Sequence record: OQ743992
Length of the DNA: 64,000 nucleotides
Reading direction: 5' to 3' (one strand)
Origin: Escherichia phage vB_EfeM_pEP20
Shown: piece after piece, positions 1 to 40,251 of the stretch
Layout of the letters: each line of letters starts with the position of its first letter
Position numbering within the stretch: position 1 is the stretch's first letter
Made by a program: the position numbers and the translations under genes
The notes under the pieces: model-generated
What the model was told of the DNA's origin: nothing
Databases searched by the model: none
What the model saw: the letters and a program-made list of their open reading frames with translations, nothing else

Positions 1-600
1 GGTAGCCCTTAACATCCCTGTAACATCCCCTTTGCAGAATTTTAAAATATCATTAACAATCTCTTAACAGTTACTACATCTTCTTAACAACTCTTCAGAG
101 GTCTTAACAGTCTCTTAACAGTTTTAACAAGGGGGGTAACAGTTTCTTAACAAGTGCTGAATAGTCTTTACAGAGGCTTAACAGATGACTAACAAGAGCT
201 AACAAGTTAATTTTAAAGAGTTATTTTGTTAAGATAATTAACAAGTTCCTAACAAGTGTTTAATCTTTTTAACAAGCTATTAACATGGTCACTATCTCTT
301 CTCTTATCGTTCCCTTTTCTCTCTTAGTGATTCTCTAAACATACCTCTTAAAAGCTCTCTATAGCTCCTTGTAAGCTCTTTTTAGTCTCTTCCTAGTTAC
401 TACACCCCAACTGTACAGATACCTTTTTATAGAGCTTTACAGGAGCTTTTAAGGCTATGCCAAAGGCTCTTACAAGGCTTTTACGTGGTCTTAACAGAGA
501 TTTAACAAGGGGCTAACAAGTTGCTAACAAGTGCCTTAAAAGCATAACTATGTAGGGGTTGTTAAGAAATTGTTAAGAAAATGTTAAGGGGGCTAGCATT
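1..600. repeat. Iteron-like noncoding block: about 25 direct copies of TAACA(A/G), mostly (c)TTAACA(a/g)g, spaced 10-20 bp; no credible ORF
   Basis: Read directly: ttaacag/ttaacaa/ctaacaag recur at ~11, 22, 53, 64, 84, 103, 114, 124, 137, 147, 178, 190, 200, 237, 249, 269, 279, 491, 504, 514, 524, 562, 572, 583. Confidence 0.6.
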
Positions 601-601
601 T

Positions 602-641
602 ACGTAACTTTTAAGCTATCTATCACGTAACTTTTAAGCTA
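602..641. repeat. Two direct copies of 17-bp ACGTAACTTTTAAGCTA separated by 6 bp
   Basis: Exact duplicate read in sequence. Confidence 0.55.
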
Positions 642-1010
642 CTTCAAAGTAACTTTATAGCCCCCTATAACATACTTTTTAGTGACTATCAAGGGGATTG
701 TTTAGTAGTTCACAAGATACTAGCCAACCTATTAGCTTACACCCTTATAAGATTCTTTTAAGCCTCTATAAAGCCCTGTAAAGAGCTTTTAAGGGTGAGT
801 TAATGCAATCCCTTAAGTTAGGTTGATAAGGCTGTTATAGCGCTTTATAGAGCGTTTAAATGGGCCATCCCCTTTCTGGGGTTATTGGCTTATATTTAAG
901 TTGATTTGATAAAAGGCTATAGAGTAGACTATAGAGTTATTGCTTTTAAGGTCTGATAAGATTCTAGAAAGGCGAGGGAAAGGAATTGTATAAGGCTATT
1001 ACATAGACGT

Positions 1011-1044
1011 AAAAAAAAAAAAAAGCCCCTATGAGAAGGAGCTT
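1011..1044 (-). terminator. Intrinsic terminator closing the early ORFan cluster (minus strand)
   Basis: Minus-strand RNA: 7-bp stem AGCUCCU/AGGGGCU (one G-U pair) followed by U14 (A14 run at 1011-1024 on plus strand). Confidence 0.6.
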
Positions 1045-1081
1045 TTCAGGTATCTGGGGCTATTTAGCCCCGTTGCGTCGA

Positions 1082-2001: not shown

Positions 2002-2152
2002 TTGTTTTGATAGTTGATTGCAAGTAATTTTTTGAGCTTATCTATAAAGAATCTTTTAAGTTAATCCCTTTTAGATAAACCCCCTCGAACAAAGTTACCA
2101 ATGTCAAGAGGGATTGTCAACATCTTTTTAAAAGTTTTTTGTAAGTTATTGA

Positions 2153-2494
2153 TTAACTGATGAATATTTTTTCAGGCTTTACATAGCTGATACGCTGACT
2201 TTTTAGCAGGCTATCCCATAACAAGGCGGCAATGTGCCCATATCCGGCCTCACGCAGCCCCTTCATCGTTTCAACTCGACTCTCAAAACGATTTGCGTAA
2301 TACTCGCTATTAAGTGTCGTTTTGTTCCCTTCGTTATCTGTATGGATGATTTGCATCACTTGAAAGGGGCTGACATCCTCGCCTTTGTTCCACTGCTCAA
2401 AGTATTTTAGGCACTGCATAGGTGACATCTTATCACTTACTTGAGTTGACCAAGATGAATCTTCTTTATCGGTAATTACAGTTACATAAGCCAT
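2153..2494 (-). CDS. Hypothetical early protein (113 aa)
   Basis: ORF plus cassette RBS. Confidence 0.5.
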   Translation of the reverse strand: MAYVTVITDKEDSSWSTQVSDKMSPMQCLKYFEQWNKGEDVSPFQVMQIIHTDNEGNKTTLNSEYYANRFESRVETMKGLREAGYGHIAALLWDSLLKSQRISYVKPEKIFIS

Positions 2495-36626: not shown

Positions 36627-37049
36627 TTATTTCTCTCTCAGTTGGTTAAGTTTCTTTCTAGAACATTTTAAGTTTTCGGATGAAGAAAAGTCAAGTGTCT
36701 TTTCAGAACGTGGATAGTAATGTCTATCCCAAGAAGTTTCAACATCATTAATCAGTGACGCTAGATTACACAGGTCTGTACCACTTTGCAACCTCTTTTT
36801 AAGAGAATCTAGTAAAGCAACCGTGTCTTTAGCTTTACGTCTAGCTGTAGCAACATCTTTCATATGCTCAAATACAGAGCATTTTAAGTCATCTTCGTAG
36901 TCTTCAGACAACTCTATTTCATGTTGTATATCAACCATTCTCCTGTGATGGTGAGCATATTCCCGTTGAGCAGCAATGTCAAGTTCTTCCAACTTCTGCA
37001 AAGCCCTAACAAAGTCAGCTATGTCTGGGTGAACAAACATTTTCTGCAT
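36627..37049 (-). CDS. Hypothetical protein (140 aa)
   Basis: ORF; first gene of the minus-strand unit diverging from the DNA polymerase gene. Confidence 0.5.
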   Translation of the reverse strand: MQKMFVHPDIADFVRALQKLEELDIAAQREYAHHHRRMVDIQHEIELSEDYEDDLKCSVFEHMKDVATARRKAKDTVALLDSLKKRLQSGTDLCNLASLINDVETSWDRHYYPRSEKTLDFSSSENLKCSRKKLNQLREK

Positions 37050-37306
37050 GTAAGCCTCTTTTAAGTAACTATTAAGTTTTAATCTTTTATCTTAACGTAT
37101 TCTATACGTTATACTTTAAAGCTTTTTAAAAGCTATTAAATAATCTTTTAAGAGTTTTAAAGTATCTGTATAGTTAAACTGTTAAGTAACCTTTTAAGTA
37201 AAAACCCACTTCGCAAAGATTAACACCTTGTCAAGTACATTGTCAACTTGCTTTTTATAATTTTTTGCAGTAATGTATGAGGTTAATGATTTTAGAGGGA
37301 GTAAAA

Positions 37307-39449
37307 ATGGAAAACGTAGATTTTAAAAACTTACATTTAGTTGGTGATACAGAAACTGATGGTTTACTCCTTGAGTTCACTAAAGTACACGTAATGGCTT
37401 TCGCAGACTATAAATCTGACGATGAAGAGCCACCTGTATGGGTCTTTACAGATGAGCCTATCCTCGGTCACAAGTATACCAAGTACATTAAGGGTGGTTT
37501 GCGTGAAGGTGTTGAGTTTGCGTTAAAGGCAAAACGGCTTTGCATCCATAATGGTCTGGGTTATGACTGGTGGGTTTTCAATCACATTGCACCTGATTTA
37601 TGGAACTTTGATAATCCAAAGTGTAAGCCGTGGAGTAATTTCTTTCAGGATTCTCTTATCCAGTCTCGTGTTCAGTGGATGGATAGACCAACTCCAAAAG
37701 GCTATAAAGGTGCTCATGGCTTGGCAGCGTGGGGTGCTCGTGTTGGTGTTCGTAAACCAGAGATTGAACATTGGGGTGTGTGGAATGCAGAAATCTTCAC
37801 TCGTGTTGTAGAAGATATCCGTATTAACGCCAAAACTAAACGTGCACTGGATAATGAATATCTCAAACTTAAGAAGTGTGGTATAGACACTTATGAAACC
37901 TATATGAGAGCTAAAGAAACATCTTTCTGGATGAGTCAACAAGCTATCAATGGTTGGAAAGCTGATAAAGAGCTTATGGAGTTCCATGTAAAGGAACTTG
38001 ACAAGTTGACTAATGAGCTTGCTTCAGAAGTTGAACCACATCTTCCTCCAACTATTAAGACCAAAGGTAAAGTCACTGGAGAAGAGTTTGCAAAAGCTTG
38101 GAATGAATATGTTGAAACATTCGGTCATGCAGATGGACTGAAGAGAATTACAAAGTACCCTAAGACGAAGTATCGCCAACAGGTACGTAACGGTGAGATG
38201 CAGACATACGAAATCAAGCCATTTGGGAAGCCAACTACAAAGATTTTTAACATTGAAAAGCGGAATTGCTATACACCAACCAACTCCGTAACTGGTGAAG
38301 AGTACAAGGAAGGTTTTGTAGCAATGAAGGATGCTCGTGCAATTTGCAATGAGTTGAATGCAAAGATTGGTAAGAAGTGCAAAGACTGGAAGCCAGTAAA
38401 AACAGTTAAAACTGTGAAGTACTATAACAGCCATGTTGTTAACCACTTTGAACTTGAGTCAAGTCGCTACACAGGTTTGATTGATGCACCATATACACCA
38501 ATTGAGTTCGAAGTTTCTCGTATGACTCAGGTAGCAGTTGTTAAAGACTACTTGAAATCAGTTGGTTGGATTCCAGATGACTGGAACTACAAGAAAGACT
38601 CAGATGGTCGTCCTGTTAAGGTTTGTCGCTTCAAAGACAACAAAAAGATGATTACAAAACATCCTAAGTGGGATGAGATGGTGGAACGGTGTGGTTTGAG
38701 TTATGTTGAACACGAAGGTGTCCAGTACATTGAACATAACTGGTCTGTTAAGAAGTACACAGATTTGCTTGAGCCTTGCTTAATCCGTACTTCACCAAAA
38801 CTTACTGAATCATCTTATGACACGATTGAAGGTGAGCTTGGACAGAAGATTGCGAAATACTATACTTTGATGCACCGACGTAGAACTATTGAGAACTCAA
38901 AAGATGATGAAAAAGGTTGGTTGAACCAGATTCGTCCTGATGGTCGCCTTAGTGCTGGTGCAATGGTGTTTGGTACTTCAACTGGACGTATGACACAATA
39001 TGGTATTGTAAACGTGCCGTCTGGTGCTGCTGTCTATGGAGCACCTATGAGGGAGGTCTGGACTTGTGAAGAAGGTACTAATATTGTTTCAGCCGACATG
39101 AATAGCGCCCAACTTGTGCTACTGTGTAACTTTATGGGCGATAAAGATTTCACTAAAGCGGTGACAGAGGGTAAAGAAGAGGTTGAATTTGTCAAACAAG
39201 AGGATGGTAGATACTATTGCAAACATTTTGACCAGTATCTAAACCCAGCTATTGACAAGTATTTACATTATGATTCTGAAAATGACTTATACGTGGTGTA
39301 CTCAGGGACTGATGCACACACTTTGAATAGTATCTACTTCAGTCTTAATAAAGAGGAAGACATCTTGACATGTCGAGCTACTCAGGATACAAGTCTTCTT
39401 CAAGAAATTAGTAAAGGTCGTAAGAAAGCCAAAAATGGCATCTATGCGT
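37307..39449 (+). CDS. DNA polymerase, family A (T7 gp5-like), exon 1 (3'-5' exonuclease and most of the polymerase domain, to within motif B)
   Basis: N-terminal HLVGDTETDGL exonuclease motif; ends RKKAKNGIYA (compare T7 RDNAKTFIYGF) at a T; RBS GAGGGAG; continues at 40252. Confidence 0.75.
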
Positions 39450-40251
39450 CAGTGGCGCATGTAAAACGTTGTGAATTGCTGGAAGCCTAAGTCTGTAAAG
39501 ATATGGTAATCAGCAGCGAAGTCTCTGTTAGGACTCCTAAAACAAAGGAGAGAGACAATGGCAGGTTACGAAGAGAGATTATGCACTGAGTGTGGTACGG
39601 AGTTTAAACCATATCAATACAATCAGAAACGGTGCAGAAGTTGTGTATTAAAGTTTGACAGAAGGGCAGAACACAGGGTTCTTACTAAGAAATGCCCTAG
39701 TTGTGAGAAGGTGTTCATGCCGAGAACAGCAAGGCAAGTTTATTGTTCGTCACATTGCGGTGAGAAAGGTAGAGTTAAGAATTACTACCTAAGAACATAT
39801 GGATTGGAAAGAGGAGAGGTTGAGGCTCTACTCCGTGACTGTGATTACAAATGTCAAATTTGTGGCGGTGAAGGTTTTATCATGAATGGTTCACGACACA
39901 AGGCTAAACTTGTTGTTGACCATGACCATAAAACCGGAAAGGTAAGAGGTATGTTATGCCACAATTGCAACAGAGCTTTGGGGTTGCTTGCAGATAGTGT
40001 TGATAACATGCAAAGAGCAATTGACTATCTAAGCAAATGATATAACTATAGAGATTCCTAACAGAGAAACGTTCAGAGACTATCGAAAAGCATACTTAAC
40101 GTATGAACTGAGTAGAGTAGGGTGGTAAGCTAATGACCATTCCCAAGTGCAACGGTAGTATTACTACTACGTGATATAGTCCGACACTCCGTAGAAATGC
40201 GGAGAAGTTCATAAGAGAACTGGTACACCTTGCGAGTGTATTGACCAGATG
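39450..40251 (+). mobile_element. Intervening sequence in the polymerase gene, probably a group I intron, carrying an HNH endonuclease ORF
   Basis: Polymerase homology resumes in frame 802 bp downstream; 5' exon ends in T and insert ends in G; internal ORF has its own RBS. Confidence 0.6.
39558..40040 (+). CDS. HNH homing endonuclease (intron-encoded)
   Basis: Zinc-finger CxxC pairs plus VDHDHKTGKVRGMLCHNCNRALG HNH motif; RBS AAGGAG. Confidence 0.75.
   Translation: MAGYEERLCTECGTEFKPYQYNQKRCRSCVLKFDRRAEHRVLTKKCPSCEKVFMPRTARQVYCSSHCGEKGRVKNYYLRTYGLERGEVEALLRDCDYKCQICGGEGFIMNGSRHKAKLVVDHDHKTGKVRGMLCHNCNRALGLLADSVDNMQRAIDYLSK

What the first reader, a model, noticed from the sequence alone, without database searches (positions are those of the whole stretch)
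1..1010. One-kb gene-free block with about 25 TAACA(A/G) iterons and other short direct repeats
The iteron density and absence of ORFs suggest a protein-binding array: a replication origin, partition or packaging site, or a genome-end-associated region. It lies just past the terminator of the early operon. A second layer of repeats (ACGTAACTTTTAAGCTA x2; recurring ctataga/ctttataga words at 780-950) follows.
Basis: seen in the sequence. Interest (0 to 1): 0.6.

Follow-up and report, generated by a model that had tools for sequence, protein, structure and literature searches.

The report
Phage terminal repeat packed with iterons
The block is the left physical end of a Felix O1-like phage genome: a known ~593-bp direct terminal repeat, filled edge to edge with about 25 helically phased TAACA sites that probably bind a protein marking where the DNA is cut for packaging, followed by about 420 bp of conserved non-coding DNA.

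Summary
Positions 1-593 hold 25 TAACA cores (21 exact TAACA(A/G)). Rest-of-window rates and dinucleotide shuffles predict about 2. Spacings are multiples of about 10.5 bp. No ORF of 34 aa or more lies in 1-1010.

The window is a Felixounavirus genome that starts at its physical left end. Positions 1-593 are the direct terminal repeat (DTR). Two related records carry this stretch at both ends and start or stop exactly at window base 1. A Mooglevirus record annotates the same span as its terminal repeat. Published DTRs are 581-613 bp.

The array runs from 9 bp inside one DTR boundary to 7 bp inside the other. The outermost copies are inverted and unchanged in 16 genomes. Core columns are more conserved than spacers (97% versus 84% identity). 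The same core and phasing occur in Suspvirus and in the unalignable DTR of an Erwinia Kolesnikvirus.

Positions 594-1010 are conserved unique non-coding DNA with a related word family, ending at the terminator of the leftmost operon.

The best reading is a phased protein-binding array that defines the DTR for concatemer cutting and packaging, as with the T7 and SP6 terminal arrays. The binding protein is unknown. An end-linked replication role, or binding by host ArcA, is not excluded. The DTR is known; I found no description of the array.

The parts
1..593 (.). Left copy of the direct terminal repeat (DTR) of a Felixounavirus genome. Base 1 is the physical left terminus.
   Evidence: ECP2307 carries the window 1-593 equivalent as an exact 592-bp repeat at both record ends. 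Ro111lw carries it as an exact 613-bp repeat. Both records start or stop at window base 1. The HP1 repeat_region 1-570 is coterminous with window 1-593. Published DTRs: 613 bp by PhageTerm, 581 bp, 608 bp by Bal31 plus run-off sequencing.
1..15 (+). Left boundary word GGTAGCCCTTAACAT, an imperfect inverted partner of 581-593.
   Evidence: The start GGTAGCCCTTAACA is identical in 16 of 16 aligned DTRs. Arms 6-15 and 581-590 are 100% complementary (I25).
10..286 (+). Iteron block A: 17 plus-strand TAACA cores and one minus-strand copy at 227. Consensus is CTTAACA(A/G), spaced at 9-12, 20, 31-33 or 39 bp.
   Evidence: Most copies are exact in 14-16 of 16 genomes.
290..485 (.). Segment of the DTR free of TAACA and rich in C and T. 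It keeps the 11-bp periodicity through degenerate units such as AGCTC and GCTTTTAC.
   Evidence: Lag-11 autocorrelation is 0.45 against a 0.28 baseline.
492..530 (+). Iteron block B: four TAACA(A/G) copies at exactly 11-bp spacing (492, 503, 514, 525).
559..593 (-). Three inverted copies (TTGTTAAGAAA, TTGTTAAGAAA, ATGTTAAGGGG) at exactly 11-bp spacing, ending at the right DTR boundary ...AAGGGGGC|TAGC.
   Evidence: All three cores are invariant in 16 of 16 genomes.
594..1010 (.). Unique, left-end-proximal conserved non-coding region with CT(T/A)T(T/A)(A/T)AG words and weaker 11-12-bp periodicity up to about 800.
   Evidence: The 13-genome alignment shows long invariant blocks. The words occur at 28.8 per kb versus 1.25 per kb in the rest of the window.
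602..663 (+). Tandem 22-23-nt units: ACGTAACTTTTAAGCTA at 602-618 and 625-641, and a degenerate third unit at about 647-663. They lie directly inside the DTR boundary and vary in copy number among relatives.
   Evidence: families D5 and D11. One search shows about 1.5 to at least 6 copies among relatives.
864..897 (+). G+C-rich hairpin followed by TTATATTT; possibly a weak plus-strand terminator.
   Evidence: Free energy is -15.5 kcal/mol with z -2.3 on the plus strand. Two haplotypes among relatives differ by a compensatory A-T to C-G change. Function was not tested.
1010..1047 (-). Intrinsic terminator of the leftmost operon, which is transcribed toward the genome end. The last gene is at 1082-1330 on the minus strand.
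   Evidence: AYO145A annotates a terminator at the equivalent place.

Best explanation
SHOWN: The window is a Felix O1-like (Felixounavirus) genome that opens at its physical left end. Positions 1-593 are the left copy of the short, non-permuted direct terminal repeat. Positions 594-1010 are unique conserved non-coding DNA that runs up to the terminator of the leftmost, end-directed operon. The DTR is in effect one array of degenerate 11-bp units. About 25 of these units carry the core TAACA (TGTTA on the other strand; extended consensus TGTTAAGA). They are phased on one face of the helix. The array starts 9 bp from one DTR boundary and ends 7 bp from the other. The outermost copies point inward in inverted orientation.

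INFERRED (mechanism): A sequence-specific protein binds the phased sites cooperatively and coats or wraps the single DTR copy that sits between genomes in the replicative concatemer. That protein could be the DNA-recognition component of the terminase or an accessory factor. The complex marks the DTR and places the large terminase so that it nicks at the two conserved boundary words, 593 bp apart. Strand-displacement synthesis then duplicates the repeat, so that each packaged genome carries it at both ends, as described for T7-type short-DTR phages. The flanking non-coding DNA would supply accessory sites, like the repeat arrays beside the T7 and SP6 terminal repeats. In this window that DNA is 594-1010. 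In relatives there are a further ~575 bp on the other side of the DTR.

Confidence that this is the DTR and genome end is about 0.95. Confidence that the array is a selected protein-binding array is about 0.85. Confidence that its role is end definition and packaging is about 0.45. The figure given for this field refers to the whole chain.
For: Identity of the region:
- 253-258 Ounavirinae records match it.
- Window gene content is Felix O1-like: rIIA, NAMPT, Nrd, primase-helicase, DNA polymerase and tail genes.

DTR:
- Exact repeats of 592 bp (ECP2307) and 613 bp (Ro111lw) sit at both ends of those records. They start at window base 1 and stop at window 593.
- HP1 annotates a coterminous 570-bp repeat_region.
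- The literature gives 613 bp by PhageTerm, 581 bp and 608 bp by Bal31 with run-off sequencing. Erwinia phage M7 has a 444-bp DTR.

The array is not chance:
- 25 TAACA cores against about 2 expected.
- Helical phasing is matched by 0 of 5000 random placements.
- Lag-11 autocorrelation is 0.44-0.56 across 1-800, and no other part of the window shows it.

Selection on the cores:
- 19-21 plus-strand and 3-6 minus-strand copies are kept in 16 DTRs of 569-633 bp. BLAST identity of relatives' DTRs to window 1-593 runs from about 74% to 94%.
- Core columns are 97.2% identical and 80% invariant. Spacer columns are 84.0% identical and 43% invariant (Mann-Whitney p 1e-14).
- The same core, extended consensus and 11-bp spacing occur in Suspvirus SUSP1 and in the unalignable DTR of Kolesnikvirus M7.

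Link to end formation:
- The array and the DTR are coextensive.
- The boundary words GGTAGCCCTTAACA and ATGTTAAGGGGGC are invariant in 16 of 16 genomes and are inverted relative to each other.

Analogy tested here:
- T7 has 17 TAAAG cores in its first 360 bp with a 13-bp period.
- SP6 has 12 CTAAG cores just inside its DTR with a 12-bp period.
- The single-copy repeat in concatemers and its duplication at packaging are stated for T7-like phages in PMC10438801.
Against: - No binding protein is identified. The large terminase lies outside the window. No small terminase is recognisable. The 66-aa gene upstream of TerL in AYO145A matches only an unknown-function family.
- Nothing computed here separates a packaging role from a replication or recombination role of the same array.
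- Scattered TAACA copies also lie outside the DTR in relatives' right-end non-coding DNA. M7 has TGTTAAG clusters beyond its DTR.
- In M7 the right boundary does not abut a copy. The last core is 48 nt inside.
- The two 5' ends are not exactly symmetric: 8 versus 6 nt from the end to TTAACAT.
- Other short-DTR phages (phiKMV, N4) show no such array, so an array is not a general requirement of DTR packaging.
- The DTR of this particular genome is inferred from relatives, because its right end is not in the window.
Confidence: 0.5

Rival explanations
1. End-linked replication element. The phased iterons bind an initiator or architectural protein that opens the DNA or recruits the replisome or recombination machinery at the terminal repeat. 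This would act as an origin, or promote DTR-mediated concatemer formation. It would resemble the protein p6 arrays at the ends of phi29 DNA, or iterons at plasmid and phage origins.
For: The phased, conserved array is also what an origin-type nucleoprotein complex would look like. An unrelated phi29-like contig (L085; protein-primed PolB, phi29-type capsid, connector and gp16) has 119-bp inverted terminal repeats made of GTAACA copies at 11-12 bp. In that virus type the ends are the origins; this point and the phi29 p6 precedent come from my own knowledge.
Against: There is no DnaA box in 1-1010. The annotated flanking genes are all small hypothetical proteins, so no initiator gene is recognisable there. 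The core is only 5-8 bp, unlike the 17-22-bp iterons typical of origins (a figure from my own knowledge). GC skew follows gene orientation only. A second AT-rich repeat-bearing region directly upstream of the DNA polymerase gene (37050-37276) is at least as plausible an origin. The exact coincidence of the array with the DTR boundaries is not explained by an origin role.
Confidence: 0.2
2. Host response-regulator array. The iterons are ArcA-P-type direct repeats. Host ArcA, or another OmpR/PhoB-family winged-helix regulator, or a phage mimic of one, coats the terminal repeat. This would couple a DNA transaction at the genome end to host redox state. It concerns who binds, so it is compatible with either a packaging or a replication role.
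For: The ArcA direct-repeat element is ATGTTAAAAA. Its most conserved 5 bp are TGTTA. Neighbouring elements lie 11 bp centre to centre, with extra elements at 11 or 22 bp, and added elements raise affinity (PMC4173790). The iteron core here is TGTTA, has A at position 6 in 18 of 25 copies, and is spaced at 11, 20-22 or 31-33 bp. Positions 559-590 read TTGTTAAGAAA TTGTTAAGAAA ATGTTAAGG. The core is identical in four genera whose hosts are all Enterobacterales, even where the DTRs cannot be aligned. A fixed host specificity would explain that. The phage carries anaerobic and aerobic ribonucleotide reductases.
Against: Outside the core, the copies match the ArcA consensus no better than random TGTTA sites in this AT-rich genome (7.0 versus 6.65 of 10). 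Position 7 is G in about half the copies, both here and in M7, where ArcA has A. That points to a different or additional specificity. Hexamer direct repeats at 10-11 bp are generic for this regulator family (my own knowledge) and could equally fit a phage protein. No binding data exist.
Confidence: 0.12
3. Transcriptional element. The region is a buffer or insulator between two convergent operons in the concatemer or circular form, or a cluster of phage-specific promoters or regulator sites.
For: In relatives the interval lies between two convergent terminators. There is a possible extra plus-strand terminator hairpin at 864-897. The CTTTTAAG-type words recur in the divergent promoter region at 37.05-37.28 kb and upstream of left-end genes at about 2030-2160.
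Against: Sigma-70-like matches are no more frequent than in shuffles (8 versus 6.2 +/- 2.6). No gene lies downstream of any putative promoter in 1-1010. There are no Rfam families. A buffer would not need 25 phased, conserved cores ending at the DTR boundaries.
Confidence: 0.06
4. Non-functional repeat debris. The array is a decaying product of replication slippage of an 11-bp unit in dispensable non-coding DNA.
For: The whole 1-800 stretch is 11-bp periodic. The adjacent 23-nt unit varies in copy number among relatives, which shows that slippage does occur here.
Against: Cores are far more conserved than spacers. Copy number and orientation are stable across 16 genomes. The same core persists in DTRs that no longer align.
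Confidence: 0.03

Closest known systems
Short direct terminal repeats of Felix O1-like phages (Ounavirinae): UAB_Phi87 608 bp, Ro111lw 613 bp, Pr103Blw 581 bp, HP1 570 bp, M7 444 bp
   Same: Same locus, same boundaries and same sequence family. Window 1-593 aligns end to end with these repeats.
   Different: Nothing structural differs. What is added here is the internal anatomy: the phased TAACA array coextensive with the repeat and the inverted boundary copies. I found no description of this in the papers searched.
Short repeat arrays at the ends of T7 (CCTAAAG) and SP6 (CCTTAG) genomes
   Same: A 5-7-bp core is reiterated at roughly one helical turn, in and beside a short DTR of a non-permuted genome. 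T7 has 17 TAAAG cores in its first 360 bp with lag-13 autocorrelation 0.54. SP6 has 12 CTAAG cores in 175-600 with lag 12. The DTR exists as one copy in concatemers and is duplicated at packaging.
   Different: The virus families are unrelated (myovirus versus Autographiviridae). The core differs, and the period is 11 bp rather than 12-13. In T7 and SP6 most copies lie just inside the repeat boundary, in unique DNA. Here the array fills the 593-bp repeat from edge to edge and ends in inverted copies at both boundaries.
ArcA-P binding sites of E. coli (direct repeats of ATGTTAAAAA, core TGTTA, 11-bp centre-to-centre)
   Same: Identical 5-bp core, A at position 6 in most copies, 11- and 22-bp spacing, and multi-element arrays.
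   Different: ArcA sites have 2-5 elements; this array has about 25. The 3' half is not specifically ArcA-like, and G is favoured at position 7. The setting is a phage terminal repeat, not a promoter. Binding is untested.
Phased protein arrays at phi29-type genome ends, and terminase recognition sites built from short repeats (lambda cosB R sites, P1 pac hexamers). These are recalled from my own knowledge and were not tested here.
   Same: Multiple short sites near a genome end or cut site organise a nucleoprotein complex for replication initiation or terminase cutting. A phi29-like contig with TAACA-type arrays in its ITRs was seen.
   Different: The end chemistries differ: protein-primed ITRs, cohesive ends, and headful pac. 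The proteins are unrelated and the site numbers are far lower. No homology is implied.

Membership tests
Short, non-permuted direct terminal repeat (DTR) of Ounavirinae | The same sequence is present at both ends of the virion DNA. | tested here: inconclusive
   The right end of this genome is outside the 64-kb window, so it cannot be checked for this genome. It is met in relatives: exact 592-bp (ECP2307), 613-bp (Ro111lw) and 444-bp (M7) repeats at both record ends, and the HP1 repeat_region.
Short, non-permuted direct terminal repeat (DTR) of Ounavirinae | The boundaries coincide with mapped physical termini. | tested here: met
   Window base 1 and base 593 align with the first and last bases of the repeats in ECP2307, Ro111lw and HP1. 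The Ro111lw termini come from PhageTerm (613 bp). A 608-bp DTR was mapped by Bal31 and run-off sequencing in UAB_Phi87. The boundary words are identical in 16 of 16 genomes.
Short, non-permuted direct terminal repeat (DTR) of Ounavirinae | A large terminase of the Felix O1 DTR clade. | not tested
   TerL is not in the window. In AYO145A it carries Terminase_6N and 6C domains. Clustering of Felix O1-type terminases as a DTR group is reported in PMC4837284.
T7/SP6-type terminal short-repeat arrays | A short core reiterated at about one helical turn, in or next to the DTR. | tested here: met
   Here the lag-11 autocorrelation is 0.47 with 25 cores. T7 gives lag 13 at 0.54 with 17 cores. SP6 gives lag 12 with 12 cores. 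This is a resemblance of architecture only, with no sequence homology.
Replication-origin iterons | Iterons next to an initiator gene, DnaA boxes or an AT-rich unwinding element. | tested here: not met
   There is no DnaA-box match in 1-1010. The annotated flanking genes are small hypothetical proteins, so no initiator is recognisable. G+C is 35%, against 36-42% elsewhere, so there is no marked AT-rich island. Origin activity itself cannot be tested with these tools.
ArcA-P binding site | Two or more TGTTA direct-repeat elements at 11-bp centre-to-centre spacing. | tested here: met
   Examples are 492/503/514/525 and 560/571/582, each run at exactly 11 bp. The definition is from PMC4173790.
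ArcA-P binding site | A match of the full 10-bp element (ATGTTAAAAA) beyond the core. | tested here: inconclusive
   The mean is 7.0 of 10, against 6.65 of 10 for other TGTTA sites in the window. G is preferred at position 7 both here and in M7.
ArcA-P binding site | Phosphorylation-dependent binding by ArcA. | not testable with these tools
   This needs footprinting, EMSA or ChIP.
Structured RNA or known RNA family | A match to an Rfam covariance model. | tested here: not met
   No hit comes near a gathering score. The best E-values are 0.6-0.9, four of the five on the terminator.

The most novel reading that the evidence does not exclude
The terminal repeat of Felix O1-like phages is a roughly 25-site landing pad of ArcA-type direct repeats (TGTTA at 11-bp phasing). 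A host OmpR/PhoB-family response regulator, with ArcA-P as the exact core match, would coat the DTR and act as a molecular ruler whose edges define the two terminase cuts. That would tie genome maturation or end-dependent replication to the redox state of the enteric host. An unrelated phi29-like contig with similar arrays in its ITRs (L085) would then point to a host factor used at linear phage genome ends more generally.
Probability: 0.1. Interest if true: 0.75.

Novelty: new member of a known kind. Interest (0 to 1): 0.4.

Why it matters
Felix O1-like phages are widely used for Salmonella and E. coli typing, biocontrol and therapy. Most deposited genomes are opened arbitrarily and omit or misplace the DTR. 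The invariant boundary words (GGTAGCCCTTAACA ... ATGTTAAGGGGGC) give a sequence-only way to place the true ends in any Ounavirinae assembly.

How short-DTR phages recognise and measure their terminal repeat is poorly understood even for T7. Here the repeat is coextensive with a phased, conserved array ending in inverted copies at both cuts. That makes the idea that a bound protein array defines the repeat directly testable by mutating copies and mapping the resulting ends. It also gives a defined DNA bait for finding the unknown recognition protein, since no small terminase is recognisable in this group. If the binding protein turns out to be a host regulator such as ArcA, that would be a new kind of host dependency.

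Tried and rejected
- Rfam scan of 1-1400 at E-value up to 1: only sub-threshold hits, four of five on the terminator. I rejected an RNA-element reading.
- Sigma-70 promoter scan: no excess over shuffles.
- DnaA boxes: none in the region.
- GC-skew profile: it follows gene orientation and says nothing about an origin.
- The UAB_Phi87 GenBank record (JN225449), used to read the experimentally mapped DTR directly: the deposited record is not opened at the termini. I used ECP2307, Ro111lw, HP1 and M7 instead.
Most hits were unrelated simple tandem repeats in AT-rich contigs. It was useful only for extra Ounavirinae loci and the phi29-like contig L085.
- Search for a small terminase beside TerL in AYO145A: only a 66-aa protein of unknown function.
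- Literature searches for a description of the array, or of Felixounavirus promoters and transcriptomes: nothing found. One search was wasted because 'pacB' matched 'PacBio'.
- One mis-set coordinate (third sequence) should be ignored.
- Partition-site reading: no dedicated test was run. The large ORFs scanned gave no partition-type family, and nothing else pointed to this reading in a lytic phage.
Full report
**What the sequence shows**

Positions 1-1010 contain no ORF of 34 aa or more. The only ORF of 30 aa or more is a 33-aa TTG ORF at 104-205 on the minus strand. The next gene, at 1082-1330 on the minus strand, is followed by an intrinsic terminator at 1047-1020 whose T-run reaches about 1010.

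Exact TAACA(A/G) occurs 22 times in 1-1010. Of these, 21 lie in 1-593. The 5-bp core TAACA occurs 25 times in 1-593, 21 on the plus strand and 4 on the minus strand.

The rest of the window predicts 1.1 TAACAR and 2.0 TAACA in 593 nt (Poisson p about 1e-19 to 1e-20). In 2000 dinucleotide-preserving shuffles of 1-593 itself, TAACA averaged 2.4 +/- 1.5 and never exceeded 8. No other 593-nt stretch of the window has more than 5 TAACAR.

- **Helical phasing.** Successive spacings are 9-12, 20, 31-33 or 39 bp. Phase coherence is R=0.80 at 10.5 bp, matched by 0 of 5000 random placements.
- **A pervasive 11-bp periodicity.** It covers all of 1-800, including the TAACA-free stretch 290-485. Lag-11 autocorrelation is 0.44-0.56 against a 0.27-0.28 baseline, and the seven highest-scoring 300-nt windows in the 64 kb all lie here.

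**What the locus is**

The region matches 253-258 phage records, nearly all Felix O1-like (Ounavirinae), at 74-94% identity. The window's large genes fit that group: rIIA, NAMPT, aerobic and anaerobic ribonucleotide reductases, primase-helicase, DNA polymerase, tail fibre, baseplate, tape measure and sheath.

- Two records begin or end exactly at window base 1. Both carry the equivalent of window 1-593 as an exact repeat at both record ends: 592 bp in ECP2307 and 613 bp in Ro111lw.
- The 613-bp value is the PhageTerm result published for Ro111lw (PMC6454146).
- A Mooglevirus record (HP1) annotates a 570-bp repeat_region that is coterminous with window 1-593.
- Pr103Blw has a 581-bp DTR by PhageTerm (PMC8303462).
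- UAB_Phi87 has a 608-bp DTR mapped with Bal31 and run-off sequencing (PMC4837284).
- The original Felix O1 paper already inferred short terminal repeats.

Window 1-593 is therefore the left copy of the direct terminal repeat, and base 1 is the physical left end. For this particular genome that is an inference, because its right end lies outside the window. The boundary words are identical to those of the mapped relatives.

In records that run through the concatemer junction, the gene-free interval is about 1.6 kb between two convergent terminators. It consists of about 575 bp of right-end non-coding DNA, the single DTR, and about 420 bp of left-end non-coding DNA. The window start hides the first part.

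**Anatomy of the repeat**

The first core starts at base 10 and the last ends at base 586. The array and the DTR are thus coextensive to within 9 and 7 bp.

The DTR starts GGTAGCCCTTAACAT and ends ATGTTAAGGGGGC. These are imperfect inverted repeats, with arms 6-15 and 581-590 100% complementary. Read inward from either physical terminus, the virion DNA begins G..CCC-TTAACAT.

Most copies point one way: 10-286 and 492-530. The last three (560, 571, 582) and one at 227 are inverted.

Just past the right boundary lie 22-23-nt tandem units (ACGTAACTTTTAAGCTA at 602-618 and 625-641, plus a degenerate third). Their copy number varies among relatives from about 1.5 to at least 6.

Beyond them, CT(T/A)T(T/A)(A/T)AG words (CTTTTAAG, CTTTATAG, CTATAAAG) are about 20-fold enriched. 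They share TTAAG with the inverted iteron TGTTAAG and keep the 11/22-bp rhythm up to about 800.

Positions 594-1010 are strongly conserved in long blocks across 13 genomes. They contain a G+C-rich hairpin with a T-rich tail at 864-897 on the plus strand. Its free energy is -15.5 kcal/mol (z -2.3), and there is one compensatory change between haplotypes.

**Evidence for function**

Sixteen DTRs of 569-633 bp all keep 19-21 plus-strand and 3-6 minus-strand cores, with identical boundary words.

In their alignment, core columns are 97.2% identical to the window and 80% invariant. Spacer columns are 84.0% identical and 43% invariant (p 1e-14). The cores were defined on the window sequence, which gives a mild ascertainment bias.

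Suspvirus SUSP1 has the same layout, with a DTR of about 571 bp.

The 444-bp DTR of Erwinia phage M7 (Kolesnikvirus) cannot be aligned with this one beyond about 80 bp. It nevertheless carries 20 cores at 11-bp rhythm, with plus-strand copies on the left and minus-strand copies on the right. Its extended consensus is the same, TGTTAAGA, and it starts with a similar word, TTAGCCACTTTTACAT.

A motif that survives when everything around it has diverged, sits on one face of the helix, and ends at the cut sites is best explained as a cooperative protein-binding array tied to the terminal repeat.

**Most likely mechanism (inferred)**

In T7-type phages the concatemer holds one copy of the repeat, and a second copy is synthesised at packaging (PMC10438801). 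I propose that a protein bound to the phased sites coats or wraps the single DTR in the concatemer. This would position the large terminase to nick at the two conserved, inverted boundary words 593 bp apart. Strand-displacement synthesis would then duplicate the repeat.

The architecture was compared directly with other short-DTR phages:
- T7 has 17 TAAAG cores in its first 360 bp at a 13-bp period.
- SP6 has 12 CTAAG cores just inside its DTR at a 12-bp period.
- phiKMV and N4 have no such periodicity.

This locus is therefore a further, and unusually extreme, example of a known kind of terminal array. It is not a universal feature of DTR packaging.

**What remains open**

The binding protein is unknown. 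TerL lies outside the window. No small terminase is recognisable beside TerL in AYO145A; there is only a 66-aa protein of unknown function.

A replication or recombination role at the ends cannot be excluded. I found no DnaA box, and the annotated flanking genes are all small hypothetical proteins, so no initiator gene is recognisable. The AT-rich, repeat-bearing divergent region just upstream of the DNA polymerase gene (37050-37276) is an alternative origin candidate.

In its favour, an unrelated 14.1-kb phi29-like contig (L085) has 119-bp inverted terminal repeats built of GTAACA copies at 11-12 bp. In that virus type the ends are the replication origins, a point from my own knowledge.

**A lead on the binding protein**

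On the other strand the core is TGTTA with A at position 6, spaced at 11 or about 22 bp. That is the published definition of the E. coli ArcA-P direct-repeat element: ATGTTAAAAA, core TGTTA, 11-bp centre to centre, with extra elements at 11 or 22 bp (PMC4173790).

A host factor of fixed specificity would explain why the core is identical in four phage genera of enterobacterial hosts.

Against it, the 3' half of the copies matches ArcA no better than random TGTTA sites in this genome (7.0 versus 6.65 of 10). G is favoured at position 7 both here and in M7. Hexamer repeats at 10-11 bp are also generic for winged-helix regulators. I rate this at about 10-12%.

**Novelty and verdict**

The DTR of Felix O1-like phages is known and is annotated in a few records. 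I found no description of its internal phased array, its coextension with the repeat, or its inverted boundary copies. The searchable literature is incomplete, so this is not proof of absence.

Its interpretation is partly supported: the region is genome-end-associated and is probably a packaging-related protein-binding array. A partition role is unsupported and an origin role is unproven.

I classify it as a new member of a known kind, of moderate interest. It offers a practical sequence signature for the true genome ends of Ounavirinae and a clean system for testing how a short terminal repeat is measured.

Noticed in passing
window 37050-37276: AT-rich divergent intergenic region between a minus-strand gene ending at 37049 and the DNA polymerase gene (37277-39490). 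It holds the only cluster of CTTTTAAG-type words outside the left end (6 in 300 nt) plus a TTGTCA...TATAAT promoter-like site. It could be a regulatory region or a replication origin.
   Followed up: partly
window 864-897 (+): G+C-rich hairpin (GCCA.CCCC/GGGG.TGGC) followed by TTATATTT. Free energy is -15.5 kcal/mol, z -2.3. Relatives show a second haplotype (GCCC..CCC/GGG..GGGC) with a compensatory A-T to C-G change. It may be a backstop terminator for plus-strand read-through across the DTR.
   Followed up: partly
window 602-663; L074 (IMG/VR contig), equivalent region: The 22-23-nt unit TTTACGTAACTTT(T/A)(A/T)AGCC directly inside the DTR boundary varies in copy number: about 1.5 copies in bumzen and EP1, 3 in the window, at least 6 in L074.
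   Followed up: partly
L085 1-119 and 13987-14105: A 14,105-bp phi29-like viral contig (protein-primed PolB, phi29-type capsid, connector, gp16 ATPase) has 119-bp inverted terminal repeats made of GTAACA copies at 11-12-bp spacing. They begin TTTCTTAGCC, which resembles the Ounavirinae termini (GGTAGCCC-TTAACA; M7 TTAGCCAC-TTTTACA). This may be chance or a shared host factor.
   Followed up: partly
L139 12921-14615 (phiSUSP1), reverse-complemented positions 650-1220: Suspvirus SUSP1 has the same DTR architecture. Both boundary copies are degenerate (GGTAGCCCTAAACA and ATGTAAAGGGGGC), while internal copies are intact.
   Followed up: partly
L009 620-660 and 780-830 (Erwinia phage M7): Two further clusters of 3-4 TGTTAAGA copies lie outside the 444-bp DTR of M7, in the left-end non-coding DNA, under two tiny annotated ORFs (gp001, gp002) that are probably spurious.
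   Followed up: no
whole window: The DnaA-box consensus TTWTNCACA occurs only twice in 64 kb, against 11.3 +/- 3.8 expected from shuffles. This looks like depletion.
   Followed up: no
L137 11751-11951 (AYO145A gene 052): A conserved 66-aa gene lies immediately upstream of the large terminase. It matches only an unknown-function phage family (phrog_4397). No recognisable small terminase is annotated in this phage group.
   Followed up: partly
L004 (JN225449, UAB_Phi87): The GenBank record of the phage whose DTR was mapped experimentally is 87,603 bp and opens in the tRNA region, not at the termini. The paper reports 87,669 bp with 608-bp repeats. The deposited record therefore does not display the mapped ends.
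   Followed up: no
window 2030-2160 (-): The upstream region of the second left-end gene carries tandem TTGACA-type promoter-like hexamers, followed by CTTAAAAG and CTTTATAG words in the leader. These are the same word family as in 594-1010.
   Followed up: no
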